From Octopus vulgaris (Eukaryota), in the NCBI GenBank assembly GCA_951406725.2, contig OX597815.1:179304001-179368000 (forward strand): 64,000 nt of DNA, written 5' to 3'. The notes beneath the pieces were generated by a model. The model did no database searches, had not been told where the DNA came from, and saw only the letters and a list, made by a program, of their open reading frames with translations. Of this stretch, positions 209 through 62,340 are shown piece after piece (the stretch's first letter is position 1; each line of letters opens with the position of its first letter). A program made the translations under genes and the position numbers.

Positions 209-2371
209 TTAGAGTATGTTTAGTTGTGGTCTGTATTTTTGAATAAGATTACTTTCCTTATTTATTCGTGTTTGGTCTGTGGTGTTGTCCGAGCATTGGT
301 ATAGTGGGAAGACTAAGAATTTGGGGGACTTATTGTGTGCACAAAGGTCTAAGTGTCCACTTAGTGGTATCTGTCTTGTGGAGGGGTCCCTCAGTTGTTG
401 TCGGTAAACTGTCATTCTGTCTCTGAGGGTAAGGCTCGTTTGCCCTATGTAGTCTTAGTGGCATCCTTCACACCTTATGACGTAGAGTAAATTTTTTGAT
501 GCGCACGTGAAGTTATTTTTTATGATGAATGTGTGTCCCGAGTGGAACTTGTACGACGATCCCTCAATGAGGTGGATGCAGGTCTTACAGTTGGGGCGAC
601 CACATTTTTTGATGGTGAGCGGTGGGTTTGTGTTGTGTAATTTTGCGTTGGTGAGGAGGTTTTTTAGGGATTTAGGTTGTCTCTTACTTTTTATTATTTT
701 ATGAGCTGCCAGTATTTTTTTCAGGCGTGGGTCTTGATTTAGTTGTGGAATGTTGTTGTATATAATAGTGTAAGCTTCTGCATTCCTTGGGTTGTGTGTT
801 GAGAGATAAGGGAGGCTATTGACTGTACTGTGGATGTGTTTGGGTTTTCGAAGGTCTTGAATGTTGATTGATTTGGCCCGTTCTATTCCGTTGTCTACTA
901 GTGATGCCGGGTAATGTCTTTCGAGAAGAATTGCCCTTAGTTCCCGGAGTCTTCTATTTCGTGTTGTGTCATTTGAGACAATAGTGCAGATTCTTCTCGC
1001 TAGGTTGAAGGGGATATTTGTCTTTGTGTGTTTTGGGTGATTGGAGGTGAATAGAAGGTATTGTTTAGAGTCAGTGGGTTTGTAATGGATGTCAGTTTCA
1101 ATGTTGACGCCTTTTTTAATGATTAGGATGTCAAGAAAAGGGAGTTGGTCCTGACTATATTCCATTGTGAATTGAATGTTGTTATTTACACTGTTGATAA
1201 GGTTTTTGAAGTCTATAAGTTGGTCGAGTGTGTGGGACCATAGGATGAGGCAATCATCTAAGTAGCGTTTCCAGTTCTCCAACAGGTATTTGTGGAAAGA
1301 CTGGCCGTACTTATATTTGGATTTTTCATAGATATGTGATTCCAGGTAGGCCATCACCAGGTTTGCATAGGTAGGTGCAACTTTCGTACCCATTGCAGTC
1401 CCTGAGACCTGTCTGTAAGTGTTGTTGTGGAAATACATGAAGTTGTTTTGCAGAATAAATTTGAGGCCCTCAATTATGAATTCTTTTTTAATTCTTTCCG
1501 GGATCTCATTGGGATATTTATCCAGCCAGAATTTAATGGCTTCCAGTCCAAATTCATGTGGGATTGTGGTGTAAAGATTAATAACATCAAAAGAAACGAT
1601 TAAGGTGTCTTTATCGGCATGTTTGGGGAGATGGTTTAATAGGTCCAGGTCATCTCTTACAATACTTGGAATGTGTTTCAGTATTGGCTTTAAGATGATA
1701 TCTATAAAGTTGCTAAGTCTGTGTGTTTCACAACTTGGGCCTGCCACTATTGGTCTCAGTTTGAGATCAGTGGGATGTGGTATAGTGATGCAGGTTGAAG
1801 TGGACTTTTTGCAAGCTTCTGTGATAATTTGACTCTTGTGTATTTTTGGAAGCCCATAGAGTGTGCTGGTTTTGCAATTAAATTTAGTAATGTAGTCGCA
1901 TTCCTTTGCTGTCAAGTAATTCCGGTGTTGGTAAATGAGTGCCTTCAGATTGGTCATTGTTTTGGATTGCTGGTAGTCGACTACTCTTTCGTAGTATGTG
2001 GTATCCTCTAAAAGGAGAGATACAGAGTTTTTATATTGCTCAGTATTCATAACAACGACCGTACTACCCTTATCAGCTTCCTTTATTGTGACGTCATGAT
2101 TGTCTCGTAGCGTATGGATGATTTCCCATTCTCTTTTACTGGTGTTGGGTTTGAGTTTAGGTTGTGGGAGTTCACCATAAGGGAAGTTGGAGATGTAATC
2201 GCAAAATTTGTCTAAGGTTTTGTTTTTGCCTTTTATGGGATTATAGTTGCTTTTGTTGGTTGTTTGGCAGACCATTGTATTCGTCGTTATTATTAGTTTT
2301 TCTGTCAAAAAATTCCTCTGTGAGGCGTAATTTTCTGCAAAAGTGCGAGATGTCATCCTGTACGTGTACAA
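209..2371 (-). mobile_element. Penelope-like retroelement (PLE), RT + GIY-YIG endonuclease, probably Neptune clade; 5'-truncated, one frameshift and one premature stop
   Basis: 638-aa ORF carries PLE RT motifs YGLPKIHK, LRPIVAG, SFDVINLYTTIP, GTAMGTKVAPTYANL, WKRYLDD, LPFLDI, YKPTD, SNHPKH. Cys linker KCGRPNCKTC follows, then NLLYVIRCEGCH*DYIGQTSLTLRDR, which continues in frame past TAA (455-457) to 209. N-terminal DISHFCRKLRLTEEFF lies in another frame (frameshift about 2260-2300). Confidence 0.95.
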
Positions 2372-4190: not shown

Positions 4191-4869
4191 TGAGGGTGCG
4201 CGCGTGTGTGTGTGTGTGTGTGTGTGCGTGTGCGTGAGTGTGTGACAGGAAAGTTTTTTACGACGAATATAAGTAGCAGAAAGATAAGACAGTAAGGTGT
4301 GATTTGAGGGAGATTTGGCTGCTATTTCTACCATGTCTAGCTGCCATGTAGGGGTCTCCCTCATAGGCTCATACATACATATATACATAGATAAGACAGT
4401 AAGGTGTGATTTGGGGGAAATTTGGCTGCTATTTCTACCAGGTCTAGCTGCCATGTAGGGGTCTCCCTCATAGGCTCATACATACATATATACATAGATA
4501 AGACAGTAAGGTGTGATTTGGGGGAAATTTGGCTGCTATTTCTACCAGGTCTAGCTGCCATGTAGGGGTCTCCCTCATAGGCTCATACATACATATATAC
4601 ATAGATAAGACAGTAAGGTGTGATTTGGGGGAAATTTGGCTGCTATTTCTACCAGGTCTAGCTGCCATGTAGGGGTCTCCCTCATAGGCTCATACATACA
4701 TATATACATAGATAAGACAGTAAGGTGTGATTTGGGGGAAATTTGGCTGCTATTTCTACCAGGTCTAGCTACCATGTAGAGGTCCCCCTCATTGGCTCAT
4801 ATATATATACATACATAAGACAGTAAGGTGTGATTTGAGGGAGATTTGGCTGCTGTTTCTACCAGGTCT
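3780..4869 (+). mobile_element. Probable non-autonomous Helitron 5' portion carrying a minisatellite
   Basis: Begins TCTCTTATTATAAAAG after an A, like the 5' end of the Helitron at 5625; no 3' hairpin or CTAG found. Confidence 0.4.
4282..4869. repeat. 107-bp tandem repeat, about 5.5 near-identical copies
   Basis: agataagacagtaaggtgtgatttg recurs at 4282, 4389, 4496, 4603 and 4710; ORF starts are spaced 107 bp apart. Confidence 0.97.
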
Positions 4870-5624: not shown

Positions 5625-6018
5625 TCTTTATATATAAAAGTGAGGTTGTGTGTCTGTCTCCTACGATTTAGATTCCTAACTACTCCCACATTTTGCGGTG
5701 CAGTTTAACCAAAAGCGGGTATCTTATAGTCGTGATTCATATCGAGACCGTCTGGGTATTAGCGCGCGTCTACGATGAGTCTACGATTTAAAAAAAAAAT
5801 TACCATCAATTTTTCCCATTTTTAATCCATTTTTGACATATATAAGGGAAGTAACTCTCTAAAATTTATTATTAAATCTCAGAACGTAAAAAGCTACAGT
5901 AACACCCCTCCCCCTTTGTGGTTAGCCATATTGAGATGTCTATTATACTTTACATCTCTAAAAATGCTTATATAATTATTTCCCTTACAAACCCGAGCAA
6001 CGCCGGGCGATACTGCTA

Positions 6019-6019
<1 letters not shown>
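5625..6019 (+). mobile_element. Non-autonomous Helitron
   Basis: 5' TCTTTATATATAAAA; 3' hairpin cccgagcaacgccggg about 8 nt before terminal CTAG; inserted between A and T. Confidence 0.85.
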
Positions 6020-6055
<36 letters not shown>

Positions 6056-7753: not shown

Positions 7754-8019
7754 TTTGCCAACATAACATGGCAGTCCTGGTTTAGGACGAATGTTGCTGT
7801 AATTTAGCCCTAGGAGACATCGTCTCCAGCTGGCTATACGACACGATCTGTATCCTTATGTTTTCGAATGGAATCGAGCTGAGTGGGGGTGCTAGATTCC
7901 CTTGTTCAAAAATATATGGACACAGATCCTGTCATATAACCAGCTGTAGACGATGTCTCCTGGGGCTAAATTACAGTAACTTTCGTCCTAAATCAGGACT
8001 GCCATGTTATGTTGGCAAA
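7754..8019. mobile_element. Foldback/MITE-like element that is almost entirely palindromic
   Basis: tttgccaacataacatggcagtcctg... and ...caggactgccatgttatgttggcaaa; arms about 125 bp including inner ggaatcgagc/gctagattcc. Confidence 0.8.
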
Positions 8020-8439
8020 CAATCTTTACTCTAAAGTACTGTTGCTGAATATTTCTCGTTGTGAGATTTACAAATAGTAATTTTCTAATTTAAAATTTCC
8101 CTCTGCATTATATTCCTCTTCCTTTCTTTTATCTTAACCTCTTACTTCAACAAACTCCTTAACCATGTAATTCTCCTCTTCACGTTTCGTTCTTTTTCTT
8201 TTCGCCTCTCAGTTCCGCTAACGACGTGACAGCGTAGTGATTGGAATCGTCTATCTGCTATCTGATTCAATCTCCTTCCCTCCTTCTCTCTCTCTCACAC
8301 TTCCTCTCTCTCTAACTCTCCCTCCCTCTCCCTCTCACTCACGCCATCTCTCACTCACTTTACCTCCTCTCTAACGTGTGAATGAAGAAACCAGTAGAAT
8401 TATATTATAAGTGAATGATTATGTGTGTGTGCGTGTGTG

Positions 8440-57916: not shown

Positions 57917-58271
57917 AACATATATATATATGAAGTGTCTTTATACATTTTGATAAGATATTAATGTTTATCATTCGAGACTCTTATTTATTTAATATAA
58001 TTGTTCCACAAACCAGTGTGAAACTTGTGATATTATCAAAACAAAAGTAGAAAGTGTGATTTTCTGACTTTTGCTGAGGTCTTTATTTACTTAACTGAAA
58101 TACTGCGTACTATTTGCAATCAAAAATCGAAATAGGCGCTTACCAACCACATGGTTCCGGGTTCAGTCCCACTACGTGGCACCTTGGGCAATTGTCTTCT
58201 ACTATAGCCTCAGGCCGACGAAAGCCTTGTGAGTGGATTTGGTAGACGGAAACTGAAAAAAGCCCGTCGTA

Positions 58272-58310
<39 letters not shown>

Positions 58311-58484
58311 ATTCTCTAAAAGAGATATAGACAGTAACTGCTCGATAACATAAGGGACTAAAGCCATCTGAATATGGCTAGGGACAGGGCAGGTGGTGGG
58401 GGTGTTACTGTTGCATTTATACGTCACCAGAAAGGCTACACCGTCACGGTGCCCTTAACCTGCAAAGGGAGGTAATTCCCCGAT

Positions 58485-58558
58485 GAAGCGGAAACCACAC
58501 ACGGACCATGGTTTCAAGGTGTATTGCCTATCGTCGGCGTGTGGTAGGCTTCCGCTTC
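58485..58558 (-). ncRNA. Type-I hammerhead motif (array copy 1)
   Basis: Reverse complement of 59019-59092. Confidence 0.65.
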
Positions 58559-58844
58559 CTCGACGAATCCTCACTCTGCAGGATATTCATATATAGATTT
58601 TCAAGCAAAATACATTTGCTGATTTCGAAAATCTGTTCGAAAGCAATAATAATTCTCTAAAAGAGATATAGACAGTAACTGCTCGATAACATAAGGGACT
58701 AAAGCCATCTGAATATGGCTAGGGACAGGGCAGGGTGGTGGGGGTGTTACTGTTGCATTTAGCCCCAGGCGAACATCGACGTCACCAGAAAGGCTCGACA
58801 CCGTCACGGTGCCCTTAACCTGCAAAGGGAGGTAATTCCCCGAT

Positions 58845-58918
58845 GAAGCGGAAACCACACACGGACCATGGTTTCAAGGTGTATTGCCTATCGTCGGCGT
58901 GTGGTAGGCTTCTGCTTC
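58845..58918 (-). ncRNA. Type-I hammerhead motif (array copy 2)
   Basis: As copy 1, with one substitution in distal stem I. Confidence 0.65.
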
Positions 58919-59018
58919 CTCGACGAATCCTCACTCTGCAGGATATTCATATATAGATTTTCAAGCAAAATACATTTGCTGATTTCGAAAATCTGTTCGA
59001 AAGCAATAATTCGTCGAG

Positions 59019-59092
59019 GAAGCGGAAGCCTACCACACGCCGACGATAGGCAATACACCTTGAAACCATGGTCCGTGTGTGGTTTCCGCTTC
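59019..59092 (+). ncRNA. Type-I hammerhead motif (array copy 3; U4C core)
   Basis: cacacg-CCGACGA-t-agg(caataca)cct-t-GAAA-CCATGG-TC-cgtgtg; stem I extended by gaagcggaa/ttccgcttc; predicted cleavage after 59073. Confidence 0.65.
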
Positions 59093-59378
59093 ATCGGGGA
59101 ATTACCTCCCTTTGCAGGTTAAGGGCACCGTGACGGTGTCGATCCTTTCTGGTGACGTCGATGTTCGCCTGGGGCTAAATGCAACAGTAACACCCCCACC
59201 ACCCTGCCCTGTCCCTAGCCATATTCAGATGGCTTTAGTCCCTTATGTTATCGAGCAGTTACTGTCTATATCTCTTTTAGAGAATTATTATTGCTTTCGA
59301 ACAGATTTTCGAAATCAGCAAATGTATTTTGCTTGAAAATCTATATATGAATATCCTGCAGAGTGAGGATTCGTCGAG

Positions 59379-59452
59379 GAAGCGGAAGCCTACCACACGC
59401 CGACGATAGGCAATACACCTTGAAACCATGGTCCGTGTGTGGTTTCCGCTTC
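59379..59452 (+). ncRNA. Type-I hammerhead motif (array copy 4)
   Basis: Identical to 59019-59092. Confidence 0.65.
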
Positions 59453-59669
59453 ATCGGGGAATTACCTCCCTTTGCAGGTTAAGGGCACCGTGACGGTGTC
59501 GAGCCTTTCTGGTGACGTCGATGTTCGCCTGGGGCTAAATGCAACAGTAACCCCCCCTGCCTCCTACATATATATATATGTCTATATCTTTTAGAGAATA
59601 TATAACAGATTTTCGAAATCAGCAAATGTATAAAATCTATATATATCCTGCCGATGAGGATTCGTCGAG

Positions 59670-59739
59670 GAAGCGAGCCTACACCGCCGACGATAGGCAA
59701 TACACCTTGAAACCATGGTCCGTGTGTGGTTTCCGCTTC
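59670..59739 (+). ncRNA. Type-I hammerhead motif (array copy 5, damaged stem I)
   Basis: Core intact; small deletions in the 5' strand of stem I. Confidence 0.5.
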
Positions 59740-59894
59740 ATCGGGGAATTACCTCCCTTTGCAGGTTAAGGGCACCGTGACGGTGTCGAGCCTTTCTGGT
59801 GACGTCGATGTTCGCCTGGGGCTAAATGCAACAGTAACACCCCCACCACCCTGCCCTGTCCCTAGCCATATTCAGATGGCTTTAGTCCCTTATG

Positions 59895-59954
<60 letters not shown>

Positions 59955-60900
59955 ATGTGTTTGTGTGTCTGTGTTTGTTCCCCCAACATTGCTTGACAAC
60001 CGATGCTGGTGTGTTTACGTCCCCGTAACTTAGCGGTTCGGCAAAAAGAGACCGATAAAATAAGTACTAGGCTTCCAAAGAATAAGACCGGGGTCGATTT
60101 TCTCGACTAAAGGCGGTGCTCCAGCATGGCCACAGTCAAATGACTGAAACAAGTAAAAGAGTAAAAGAGTATAGGCTCGAGAGTATGCGAGATGTTTCAC
60201 TCTATTAGAACACATCTAGCTTTATGAAGAGAACGTAAAGAGAGGCATTGTGTTGGTGAAAACCTGAACTGTAAGTTTGTTTTAATGGCTGAGTCAGAGA
60301 AAATGAGCTTCCATGACAAGTAGAAGGAAAGTAAGAAATTATTCTCACATTGGAGACCTTATCCACATGCTTGCGACAGAGTGGGCACCTTTAATAAACG
60401 TAGCTGAGTGCTTGGTGAATGAGTTAAACCAGATGGCGTATTGTTGCCTGTCTGTCAAAAGAAAAGCGTCTGCTTTAAAAGATTTCCGAAGTAATCCGGA
60501 GGAAGGCATCCTCATTTGACGTAATCGTTTTCCCACGGCCATTTCAAGTTTAGAATCTAGTGATTGTGAAGACAGCGCTGTATACTCCAGTGAGTAAATA
60601 ACATTTTTAATGCAACTTTGAACTTAGTTTCCTTCGATTTAAGTCGGAGCTGATAAAATTAAAAGAATAAATAAATGCAGGCTAGACGTTTGTGTTGAAG
60701 CAAATGACAGTATTATTGTTCTTCAATAACTGAATATCTGTATCAATATAAAAGCATCGTAATAAAGTTGGAGGATAGGAGAGTGTGCAGTGTTGATGGC
60801 TTCCTAGCAGTTTGTTTTGTTCTTGTACATAAAGGAACCGAATCGAACAACAACCAACTTTGCCTTTCATTATTTGCAAGGTCGATAAAACAAGTATACA

Positions 60901-61317
60901 GGCGCAGGAGTGGCTGTGTGGTAAGTAGCTTGTTTACCAACCACATGGTTCTGGGTTCAGTCCCACTGCGTGGCACCTAGGGCAAATGTCTTCTACTATA
61001 GCCTCGGGTCGACCAAAGCCTTGTCAGTGGATTTGGTAGACGGAAACTGAAAAGAAGCCCGTCGTATATATGTATATATATATATATGTATATGTGTGTT
61101 TGTGTATCTGTGTTTGTCCCCCTAGCATTGCTTGACAACCGATGCTGGTGTGTTTATGTCCCCGTAACTTAGCGGTTCGGCAAAAGAGACCGATAGAATA
61201 AGTACTGGGCTTACAAAAGAATAAGTCCCAGGGCTGAGTTGCTCGATTAAAGGCGGTGCTCCAGCATGGCCGCAGTCAAATGACTGAAACAAGTAAAAGA
61301 GTAAAAGAGTAAAAGAG
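60901..61317 (+). mobile_element. SINE family A, full length, young
   Basis: tRNA-like head, CORE-like accttgggcaagtg variant, microsatellite centre, (gtaaaaga)n tail. Confidence 0.92.
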
Positions 61318-61645: not shown

Positions 61646-62340
61646 ATGATTCCAAATTTTTGCGACAAGGGCAGCGTGGGGGAGGAGATTAAGTCGATTA
61701 CATCGATCCCAGTTCGCAACTGGTACTTAATTTATCGACCCCGAAATGATGAAAGGCAAAGTGAACCTCGGCGAAATTTGAACTCAGAATGTAGCGGCAG
61801 ACGTAATACTTATTTCTTTATTGTCCACAAGGGGCTAAACATAGAGGGGACAAACAAGGACAGACAAACAGATTAAGTCGATTACATCGATCCCAGTTCA
61901 TAACTGGTACTTATTTAATCGACCCCGAAAGGATGAAAGGCAAAGTTGACCTCGGCGGAATTTGAACTCAGAACGTAGGGGCAGGCGAAATACCTATTTC
62001 TTTACTGACCACAAGGGGGTTACACACAGAGGGGACAAACAAGGACAGACAAACGGATTAAGTCGATTACATCGACCCCAGTGCGTAACTGGTACTTAAT
62101 TTATCTATTTCTTTACTACCCACGAGGGGCTAAGCACAGAGGGGACAAACAAGGACAGACAAACGGATTAAGTCGATTATATCGACCCCAGTGCGTAACT
62201 GATACTTTTTTAATCGACCCCGAGAGGATGAAAGGCAAAGTCGACCTCGGCGGAATTTGAACTCAGAACGTAAAGACAGACGAAATACTCGCTAAGCATT
62301 TCGCCCGGCTTGTTAACGAATCTGCCAGCTCGCCGCATTA
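61646..62340 (-). mobile_element. SINE family B with multiple internal tandem duplications
   Basis: gaggggacaaacaaggacagacaaac recurs three times; core recurs three times. Confidence 0.9.

What the first reader, a model, noticed from the sequence alone, without database searches (positions are those of the whole stretch)
58306..59898. Retrozyme-like 360-bp tandem/inverted array, each unit with a type-I hammerhead
Seen: a non-coding 360-bp unit, two copies on minus and about 2.7 on plus, joined back to back at about 59010 and inserted in the central (TA)n of a SINE. Each unit has cacacg-CCGACGA-stem II-GAAA-CCATGG-TC-cgtgtg, an extended bulged stem I, and a palindromic stem III (ACCATGGT) suited to dimeric folding between tandem copies. 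Known: metazoan non-LTR retrozymes are small tandem HHR-bearing repeats that yield circular RNAs and are thought to use Penelope-like machinery; PLE insertions often have an inverted 5' segment. Inference: this is a young cephalopod retrozyme family producing a ~360-nt monomer or circRNA. I do not know of it being described, but I cannot search. Caveat: U4C and U10.1-U11.1 depart from the canonical core.
Basis: partly seen in the sequence, partly recalled or inferred. Interest (0 to 1): 0.92.

Follow-up and report, generated by a model that had tools for sequence, protein, structure and literature searches.

The report
Young ribozyme-bearing mobile tandem repeat
A 360-base non-coding unit carrying a variant self-cleaving RNA motif has recently spread through this animal genome as ready-made tandem arrays, and the shape of those insertions suggests that a small RNA circle is copied round and round by the enzymes of Penelope-like retrotransposons.

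Summary
Observation confirmed. Window 58305-59898 is one insertion of a young dispersed family: 424 exact ribozyme-core matches genome-wide, control 0. It is a non-LTR retrozyme by anatomy. Rfam misses the window's motif, but relatives show it is a true type I hammerhead: 7 of 19 pairs change on both sides, including the C3-G8 core pair, and one relative matches HH9. U4C is the family state and recurs in other repeats here, including an autonomous Penelope-like element. Insertions carry Penelope-type marks: 33 of 40 have an inverted arm, 29 of those 33 have a ~44-nt tail on one end only, and 37 of 40 touch (TA)n. Units within an insertion share one haplotype in 35 of 40 loci (shuffled mean 4.6), as expected if one monomer is copied repeatedly. 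Cleavage, circular RNA and the partner enzyme are inferred, not shown; no Penelope-like element homologous to the unit was found. The superfamily has at least 10,954 motif matches. No cephalopod retrozyme turned up in 8 paper searches. The scan noted a ribozyme-free element of similar architecture in another genome, but not this family.

The parts
58305..59010 (-). Inverted arm, about 2 units, 5'-truncated at q278, 3' end at q282 (tailed end)
59010..59898 (+). Second arm, 2.7 units nominally, 3' end at q242 (short end)
59010..59369 (+). Reference 360-nt unit (q1-360), 46.7% G+C, no coding frame conserved
59019..59092 (+). Type I hammerhead with bulged, extended stem I: distal stem q10-21/q72-83, loop 1, proximal stem q25-30/q65-70, core C3 C4 G5 A6 C7 G8 A9 at 59040-59046, stem II with U-U base and 7-nt loop, GAAA 59062-59065, palindromic stem III, predicted cut after 59073
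   Evidence: sequence; folds; covariation
59379..59452 (+). Second intact hammerhead; predicted cut after 59433, giving a 360-nt monomer 59074-59433
59687..59720 (+). Third plus-strand core; 5' strand of stem I damaged, active fold 13 kcal/mol above the minimum
58864..58897 (-). Hammerhead core of the inner minus copy
58504..58537 (-). Hammerhead core of the outer minus copy
58305..58344 (-). Tail (q243-282), present at this end only
59124..59140 (+). Small hairpin q115-131, kept with substitutions in relatives
   Evidence: read by eye, not counted formally
59168..59189 (+). Central motif shared across the superfamily; function unknown, candidate recognition signal
   Evidence: 10,954 matches, control 1
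59558..59690 (+). Decayed stretch with many small deletions, private to this locus
58270..58305 (.). (TA)n target, left
59896..59944 (.). (TA)n target, right
58140..58269 (+). Left half of the interrupted host repeat (SINE-like)
   Evidence: D7
59945..60171 (+). Right half of the interrupted host repeat
   Evidence: D8, D10

Best explanation
A non-autonomous Penelope-dependent retroelement of the non-LTR retrozyme kind. Shown: a dispersed 360-nt non-coding unit with a structurally conserved type I hammerhead, inserted as arrays with Penelope-type ends. Inferred cycle: (1) an array is transcribed as a multimer; (2) neighbouring hammerheads pair through their palindromic stem III and cut after q64, releasing 360-nt monomers; (3) monomers are ligated to circles, in which the lone ribozyme is held in an inactive fold; (4) the reverse transcriptase and GIY-YIG nuclease of a (TA)n-targeting Penelope-like element nick the target and prime on the RNA at two A+U-rich points 44 nt apart (q242, q286), one per DNA strand or by fold-back; (5) the enzyme runs round the circle a variable number of times, giving two oppositely oriented, randomly 5'-truncated arms of identical units. 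U4C probably slows but does not abolish cleavage.
For: Dispersed young family: 225 matches (the 150 listed are 96-100% identical) among 40 scored of 633 candidates. Covariation over 14 variants of four lineages: 95.9% of cells paired, 7 of 19 pairs with changes on both sides, C3-G8 to U3-A8 in 5 rows, slid controls 29-53%. A relative matches Rfam HH9 at E 1e-5 with both tertiary loops aligned. Stem III stays a palindrome in three different sequences. Dimer brings the active fold to 4.8 kcal/mol above the minimum against 7-9 for the monomer. Circular monomer folds at z -6.2. Inverted arm in 33 of 40; one short and one tailed end in 29 of 33, as described for Penelope-like elements (10.1101/2021.04.23.441226, passages). 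(TA)n on at least one side in 37 of 40; ~13-nt duplications at 2 of the 3 other sites. 3' ends lie mid-monomer and arms cross the cut site repeatedly; 1 of 73 5' ends falls at q60-70, 2.2 expected. One haplotype per insertion in 35 of 40, shuffled mean 4.6, maximum 13; six locus-variant cases fixed in every covering unit, five across both arms. Intact RT plus GIY-YIG elements that also end in (TA)n are present.
Against: No cleavage or circle shown. No Rfam hammerhead hit for the window's motif even at E 10; the HH9 hit of the relative is 28.2 bits, under the 52-bit cut-off, and a relative with a canonical core gave no hit. The predicted minimum-energy fold is the inactive one for monomer and dimer alike. 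U4C lowers activity considerably in vitro (PMC3088659), and 8 of 9 predicted frog retrozyme dimers did not cleave in 10.64898/2026.07.22.740005. No Penelope-like terminus homologous to the unit among loci L051-L095 and L099-L129. 5 of 40 loci are mixed. The 14 rows are related and hand-picked, so the shuffle counts are not probabilities. The 40 loci were the best matches to a full unit, so they are biased to long, young arrays.
Confidence: 0.75

Rival explanations
1. Same element, dead ribozyme: in this youngest lineage the hammerhead no longer cuts, and Penelope-like enzymes copy uncut multimeric transcripts of homogeneous source arrays.
For: U4C plus U-U at the base of stem II; inactive minimum-energy fold; no 5' ends at the cut site fits uncut RNA as well as circles; a homogeneous source array also gives homogeneous daughters.
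Against: U4C is fixed in a distant lineage too (30 of 32 motifs) and occurs in three unrelated repeats while G5, A6, A9, GAAA and the cut triplet stay invariant; variants fixed through one array but absent from the other 39 loci (A84G, A168G, G132T) need a monomer-copying step somewhere; 5' truncation alone would shorten arrays over generations.
Confidence: 0.15
2. Single terminal repeats of a Penelope-like element insert first and arrays grow afterwards by unequal crossover or conversion, the route proposed in 10.64898/2026.07.22.740005.
For: Explains homogeneity within an arm; mosaic 12-unit array L031.
Against: Variants are shared across oppositely oriented arms (5 of 6 fixed cases); both ends keep exact insertion marks; arrays are dispersed over many contigs; unit-private divergence is only 0.25% in these best copies; no parent element found.
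Confidence: 0.06
3. A DNA-level rolling-circle (Helitron-type) or satellite process, with the hammerhead as a passenger.
For: A Helitron-like repeat shares q168-225 at 74-76% (the Helitron label is recalled) and also sits in (TA)n.
Against: Random 5' truncation, inverted arm, one-sided tail and ~13-nt duplications are retrotransposition marks; RNA-level covariation.
Confidence: 0.03
4. The array or inversion is an assembly artefact.
For: The window copy has a cluster of small deletions that could be sequence error.
Against: The same architecture with different junctions at 33 of 40 loci and in three related families; the unit is present in independent runs.
Confidence: 0.01

Closest known systems
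Metazoan non-LTR retrozymes (coral, mussel, axolotl; PMC7229834, parts 2-4 of 6 read; supplement unreadable)
   Same: 150-450-bp tandem unit, type I hammerhead per unit, G+C under 50%, no coding frame, self-paired circle predicted; mussel units are 350-390 bp; axolotl HHR_Amex2 also has a U-U mismatch at the base of stem II.
   Different: Non-canonical core fixed in the family (U4C; sister lineages U3-G8 and U3-A8); inverted arms, one-sided tail and (TA)n targeting, which that paper's main text does not mention ('inverted' 0, 'microsatellite' 0 occurrences); ribozyme predicted blocked in the circle, which that paper reports only for some mussel circles; expression not shown here.
Vertebrate non-LTR retrozymes as derivatives of Penelope-like terminal repeats (10.64898/2026.07.22.740005, parts 1-3 of 5 read; supplements closed)
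   Same: Same proposed dependence on Penelope-like elements; co-occurrence in the genome.
   Different: That study covers 31 vertebrates, three insects and a coral, finds sequence homology to terminal repeats, and suggests local amplification; here no homologous parent was found, while insertion marks and haplotypes point to arrays made at insertion.
Endonuclease-bearing Penelope-like elements (Neptune-like; 10.1101/2021.04.23.441226 passages; PMC4209133 parts 1-2 of 4)
   Same: Partial tandems, inverted 5'-truncated copy, tail on one end, microsatellite bias, hammerhead near the 3' end; U3-A8 covariation known from schistosome elements.
   Different: No RT or nuclease; ribozyme has the full loop 1 and loop 2 architecture, not the minimal form; tail 44 nt against 30-40 quoted.
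Rfam Hammerhead_HH9 (RF02275) and Hammerhead_1 (RF00163)
   Same: A relative aligns over the whole HH9 model, E 1e-5.
   Different: Below cut-off; the window's motif is not detected; the RF00163 genome search (73 scored of 263,217 candidates) returned 6 matches, none homologous to the unit.

Membership tests
non-LTR retrozyme | Short (150-450 bp) tandem unit, dispersed in the genome | tested here: met
   360-bp period; 40 loci on many contigs, 1.8-11.9 units each, median 3.5
non-LTR retrozyme | Type I hammerhead structure in each unit | tested here: met
   core departs from consensus at position 4
non-LTR retrozyme | Self-cleavage as monomer or dimer | not testable with these tools
   folding only
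non-LTR retrozyme | Expressed as monomeric linear and circular RNA | tested here: inconclusive
   single 390-nt contigs (360 plus overlap) in X1 and X2, but these runs are only guessed to be RNA and tandem DNA gives the same cycle
non-LTR retrozyme | No protein coding, no LTR structure | tested here: met
   longest ATG frame overlapping the array 84 aa, spanning a junction; arrays end in (TA)n with no LTR pair; PBS and PPT not searched separately
non-LTR retrozyme | G+C under 50% and strongly self-paired circle | tested here: met
   46.7%; circular fold -119.8 kcal/mol, z -6.2 on 60 shuffles
non-LTR retrozyme | Target duplication longer than 4 bp when present | tested here: met
   ~13 nt at 2 of the 3 loci with no (TA)n flank; undefinable inside (TA)n
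non-autonomous Penelope-like element | Inverted 5'-truncated copy and tail on one end | tested here: met
   33 of 40; 29 of 33
non-autonomous Penelope-like element | Sequence homology to the terminal repeat of an autonomous element | tested here: inconclusive
   none among 45 loci taken from the 148 GIY-YIG matches (150 scored of 6,136 candidates), none among 30 motif loci; most candidates unexamined
autonomous Penelope-like element | RT plus GIY-YIG frame | tested here: not met
Rfam hammerhead families | Score above curated cut-off | tested here: not met

The most novel reading that the evidence does not exclude
Each insertion is the fossil of one rolling-circle reverse transcription of a single 360-nt RNA circle by a Neptune-like enzyme that recognises it without terminal-repeat homology, and the lineage repeatedly keeps deliberately weakened hammerhead cores (C4, or U3-G8) so that circles survive as templates. 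The genome then holds a natural series of core variants, with over ten thousand superfamily copies missed by standard ribozyme searches, and a young element-enzyme pair in which retrozyme mobilisation could be reconstituted.
Probability: 0.35. Interest if true: 0.75.

Novelty: new variant of a known kind. Interest (0 to 1): 0.55.

Why it matters
That animal retrozymes move by Penelope-like enzymes copying RNA circles has been a hypothesis (PMC4209133, PMC7229834, 10.64898/2026.07.22.740005). This family is young enough to keep the marks of the reaction (two fixed priming points, inverted arms, one haplotype per array), and intact candidate enzymes with the same target lie in the same genome, so the hypothesis becomes testable. 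The recurring U4C core also shows that consensus-based searches undercount animal hammerheads.

Tried and rejected
Rfam on the window region at three widths: only microRNA-like and other chance hits. A canonical-core version of this family: 2 matches, both 5' junction products, so rejected. Search for the autonomous parent: unit against GIY-YIG loci, Penelope-like proteins against retrozyme loci; the adjacent frames (L199, L245) are separate insertions in a shared (TA)n. The second U4C repeat (L055 type) was followed upstream for ~1.5 kb and in two 9-kb stretches without finding its coding part. Public runs: no RNA holder listed, so nothing is concluded on expression. Pile-up of 5' ends at the cut site: none; the 8 starts at q1 are an edge effect of the query. 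In-phase copying of private variants between loci: 17 of 129 variants recur, 2 at the same ordinal from the 3' end, and several are alignment artefacts, so no clear sign. Fewer private changes in the core (1 against 5 expected) is too weak and biased to use. A second ribozyme (twister, HDV-like) in q90-220 was considered by eye; no Rfam support and folding z about 0. Earlier scan findings by sequence: none.

Full report
Observation. The stretch 58305-59898 is as described. With q1 at 59010, a minus arm of about two units (5' start q278, outer end q282) is joined back to back to a plus arm (q1 to q242 of a third unit). Five hammerhead-like cores are present. The middle of the plus arm is decayed and the third plus ribozyme has a damaged stem I; whether that is mutation or sequence error I cannot tell. 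The array splits a host repeat at its (TA)n; an unbroken copy lies at 60934-61311. The host is an animal genome of 2.8 billion bases; that it is an octopus-like cephalopod rests on recalled resemblance of its repeats.

The family. A DNA search of G000 scored 40 of 633 candidate places and gave 225 matches; the 150 listed are 96-100% identical. The core-to-cut-site pattern matches 424 times, the reversed control 0. A canonical U4 form of this family does not exist: its 2 matches are junction products. I read all 40 scored loci. They are biased to long, well-kept arrays.

Insertion anatomy. 33 of 40 have two oppositely oriented arms with 3' ends facing outward. In 29 of the 33 one arm ends near q242 and the other near q286, so a ~44-nt tail sits on one end only; 3 have two short ends and 1 is irregular; the 7 one-armed loci end at either point. 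37 of 40 touch (TA)n, 30 on both sides; 2 of the other 3 have ~13-nt duplications. Partial tandems, an inverted 5'-truncated copy, a 30-40-bp tail at one end and microsatellite bias are the marks given for Penelope-like elements in 10.1101/2021.04.23.441226 (passages). The 3' ends are in the middle of the predicted monomer, arms cross the cut site up to eleven times, and 5' ends do not gather at it (1 of 73, 2.2 expected). The template therefore was not a cut linear monomer; it was a circle or an uncut multimer (inference).

One template per insertion. At three diagnostic sites, 35 of 40 loci have one haplotype in all units; in 10,000 shuffles the mean was 4.6 and the maximum 13. Six locus-variant cases are fixed in every covering unit, five across both arms; three of these variants occur in no other of the 40 loci. 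Five loci are mixed: two by a single-site difference, three (L031, L039, L050) by apparent template switching; in L050 both arms begin with sequence of a sister subfamily, which favours one arm being a fold-back copy of the other there. This pattern fits repeated copying of one monomer, as proposed in PMC4209133 and PMC7229834, better than later crossover, but a homogeneous source array is not excluded.

Is it a hammerhead? Rfam gives no hammerhead hit for the window. Relatives settle the structure. A sister subfamily has U3 and U4 in place of C3 and C4 (44 aligned segments in 26 loci). A family at 80% identity with a 358-nt period (276 pattern matches, control 0) has U3-A8, a G10.1-C11.1 pair and a shorter palindrome; one copy matches HH9 at E 1e-5, 28.2 bits against a cut-off of 52, with loop 1 and loop 2 aligned. 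A more distant family (2,467 candidates, 40 scored) has C4 again in all 32 motifs read, 30 with an otherwise intact core, in 29 loci. On 14 hand-picked variants, 95.9% of cells pair and 7 of 19 pairs change on both sides, including the C3-G8 pair; slid controls pair 29-53%. The rows are related, so this is four or five independent lineages, not 14. An older relative has the canonical core (L233) but no Rfam hit. A shared central motif matches 10,954 times, control 1.

The two departures. PMC3088659 (passages and section 8) reports U10.1-U11.1 and U3-A8 as natural, and U4C as much slower in vitro yet compatible with viroid infectivity. PMC7229834 reports a U-U base of stem II in an expressed axolotl retrozyme. 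Here C4 also occurs in three unrelated repeats: the L055 type (547 candidates), the L067 type, and the 3' region of an RT plus GIY-YIG element (L091, L094), which has the U-U mismatch as well; other copies of that element have U4. So C4 is recurrent in this genome's Penelope-associated ribozymes. Folding puts the active form 7-9 kcal/mol above an inactive rod in the monomer and 4.8 above in the dimer: consistent with cutting in multimers and locking in circles, but not proof of any cutting. In 10.64898/2026.07.22.740005, 8 of 9 predicted dimers did not cut.

Expression. No listed run is on record as RNA. In X1 and X2 (two organism labels, two studies, RNA only a guess) the unit assembles as one 390-nt contig, that is one unit plus overlap; X17 and X18 hold it too, with U at the free position 7. 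Tandem DNA gives the same cycle, so this shows presence under four organism labels and nothing about transcription or circles.

Partner. The genome holds many Penelope-like elements (148 GIY-YIG matches among 150 scored of 6,136), including a young family with intact 781-aa frames ending in (TA)n. None of 45 such loci shares sequence with the unit. The partner is inferred from the insertion marks and is unnamed.

Novelty. The kind is known. Eight paper searches listed no cephalopod retrozyme; an octopus repeat annotation (PMC13282606, part 1 of 3 and term counts) has no mention of ribozymes; PMC10886601 (passages) is not relevant. The library lacks most subscription papers, Repbase and Dfam were not available, and supplements of PMC7229834, one file of PMC4209133 and those of the preprints could not be read; any could name this family. 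I rate it a new variant of a known kind: fixed non-canonical core, and clear Penelope-type insertion marks on a retrozyme.

Noticed in passing
window 212-2371 (-): A Penelope-like RT plus GIY-YIG coding stretch, 57% identical over 685 aa to the 781-aa family; longest open frame 638 aa.
   Followed up: partly
window 7760-8080: An old, decayed relative of the same superfamily, also with an inverted arm.
   Followed up: partly
window 5650-6020; L031, L123: A repeat that looks Helitron-like (label recalled) shares q168-225 of the unit at 74-76%, possibly a captured piece of a superfamily member.
   Followed up: no
window 3674 (+) and 29074 (-): Two further hammerhead-like motifs from a relaxed scan, each with look-alikes in other loci; probably ends of other Penelope-like repeats.
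   Followed up: no
L055:196-338: Abundant repeat end (547 candidates) with a minimal U4C hammerhead, inverted arms, ~70-nt tail and (TA)n target; coding part not found.
   Followed up: partly
L081-L090: Young Penelope-like family with many intact 781-aa frames, an upstream frame, and a minimal U3-A8 hammerhead in the 3' region.
   Followed up: partly
L222:1501-1547 (-): A solitary canonical hammerhead scoring 45.5 bits on RF00163, in sequence that did not match these repeats; possibly a single-copy ribozyme.
   Followed up: no
L199, L245, L250-L252, L167: Different (TA)n-targeting elements pile up side by side in the same microsatellite.
   Followed up: partly
window 4282-4869 and 61686-62207: Other tandem arrays, periods 107 and 184/110.
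   Followed up: no
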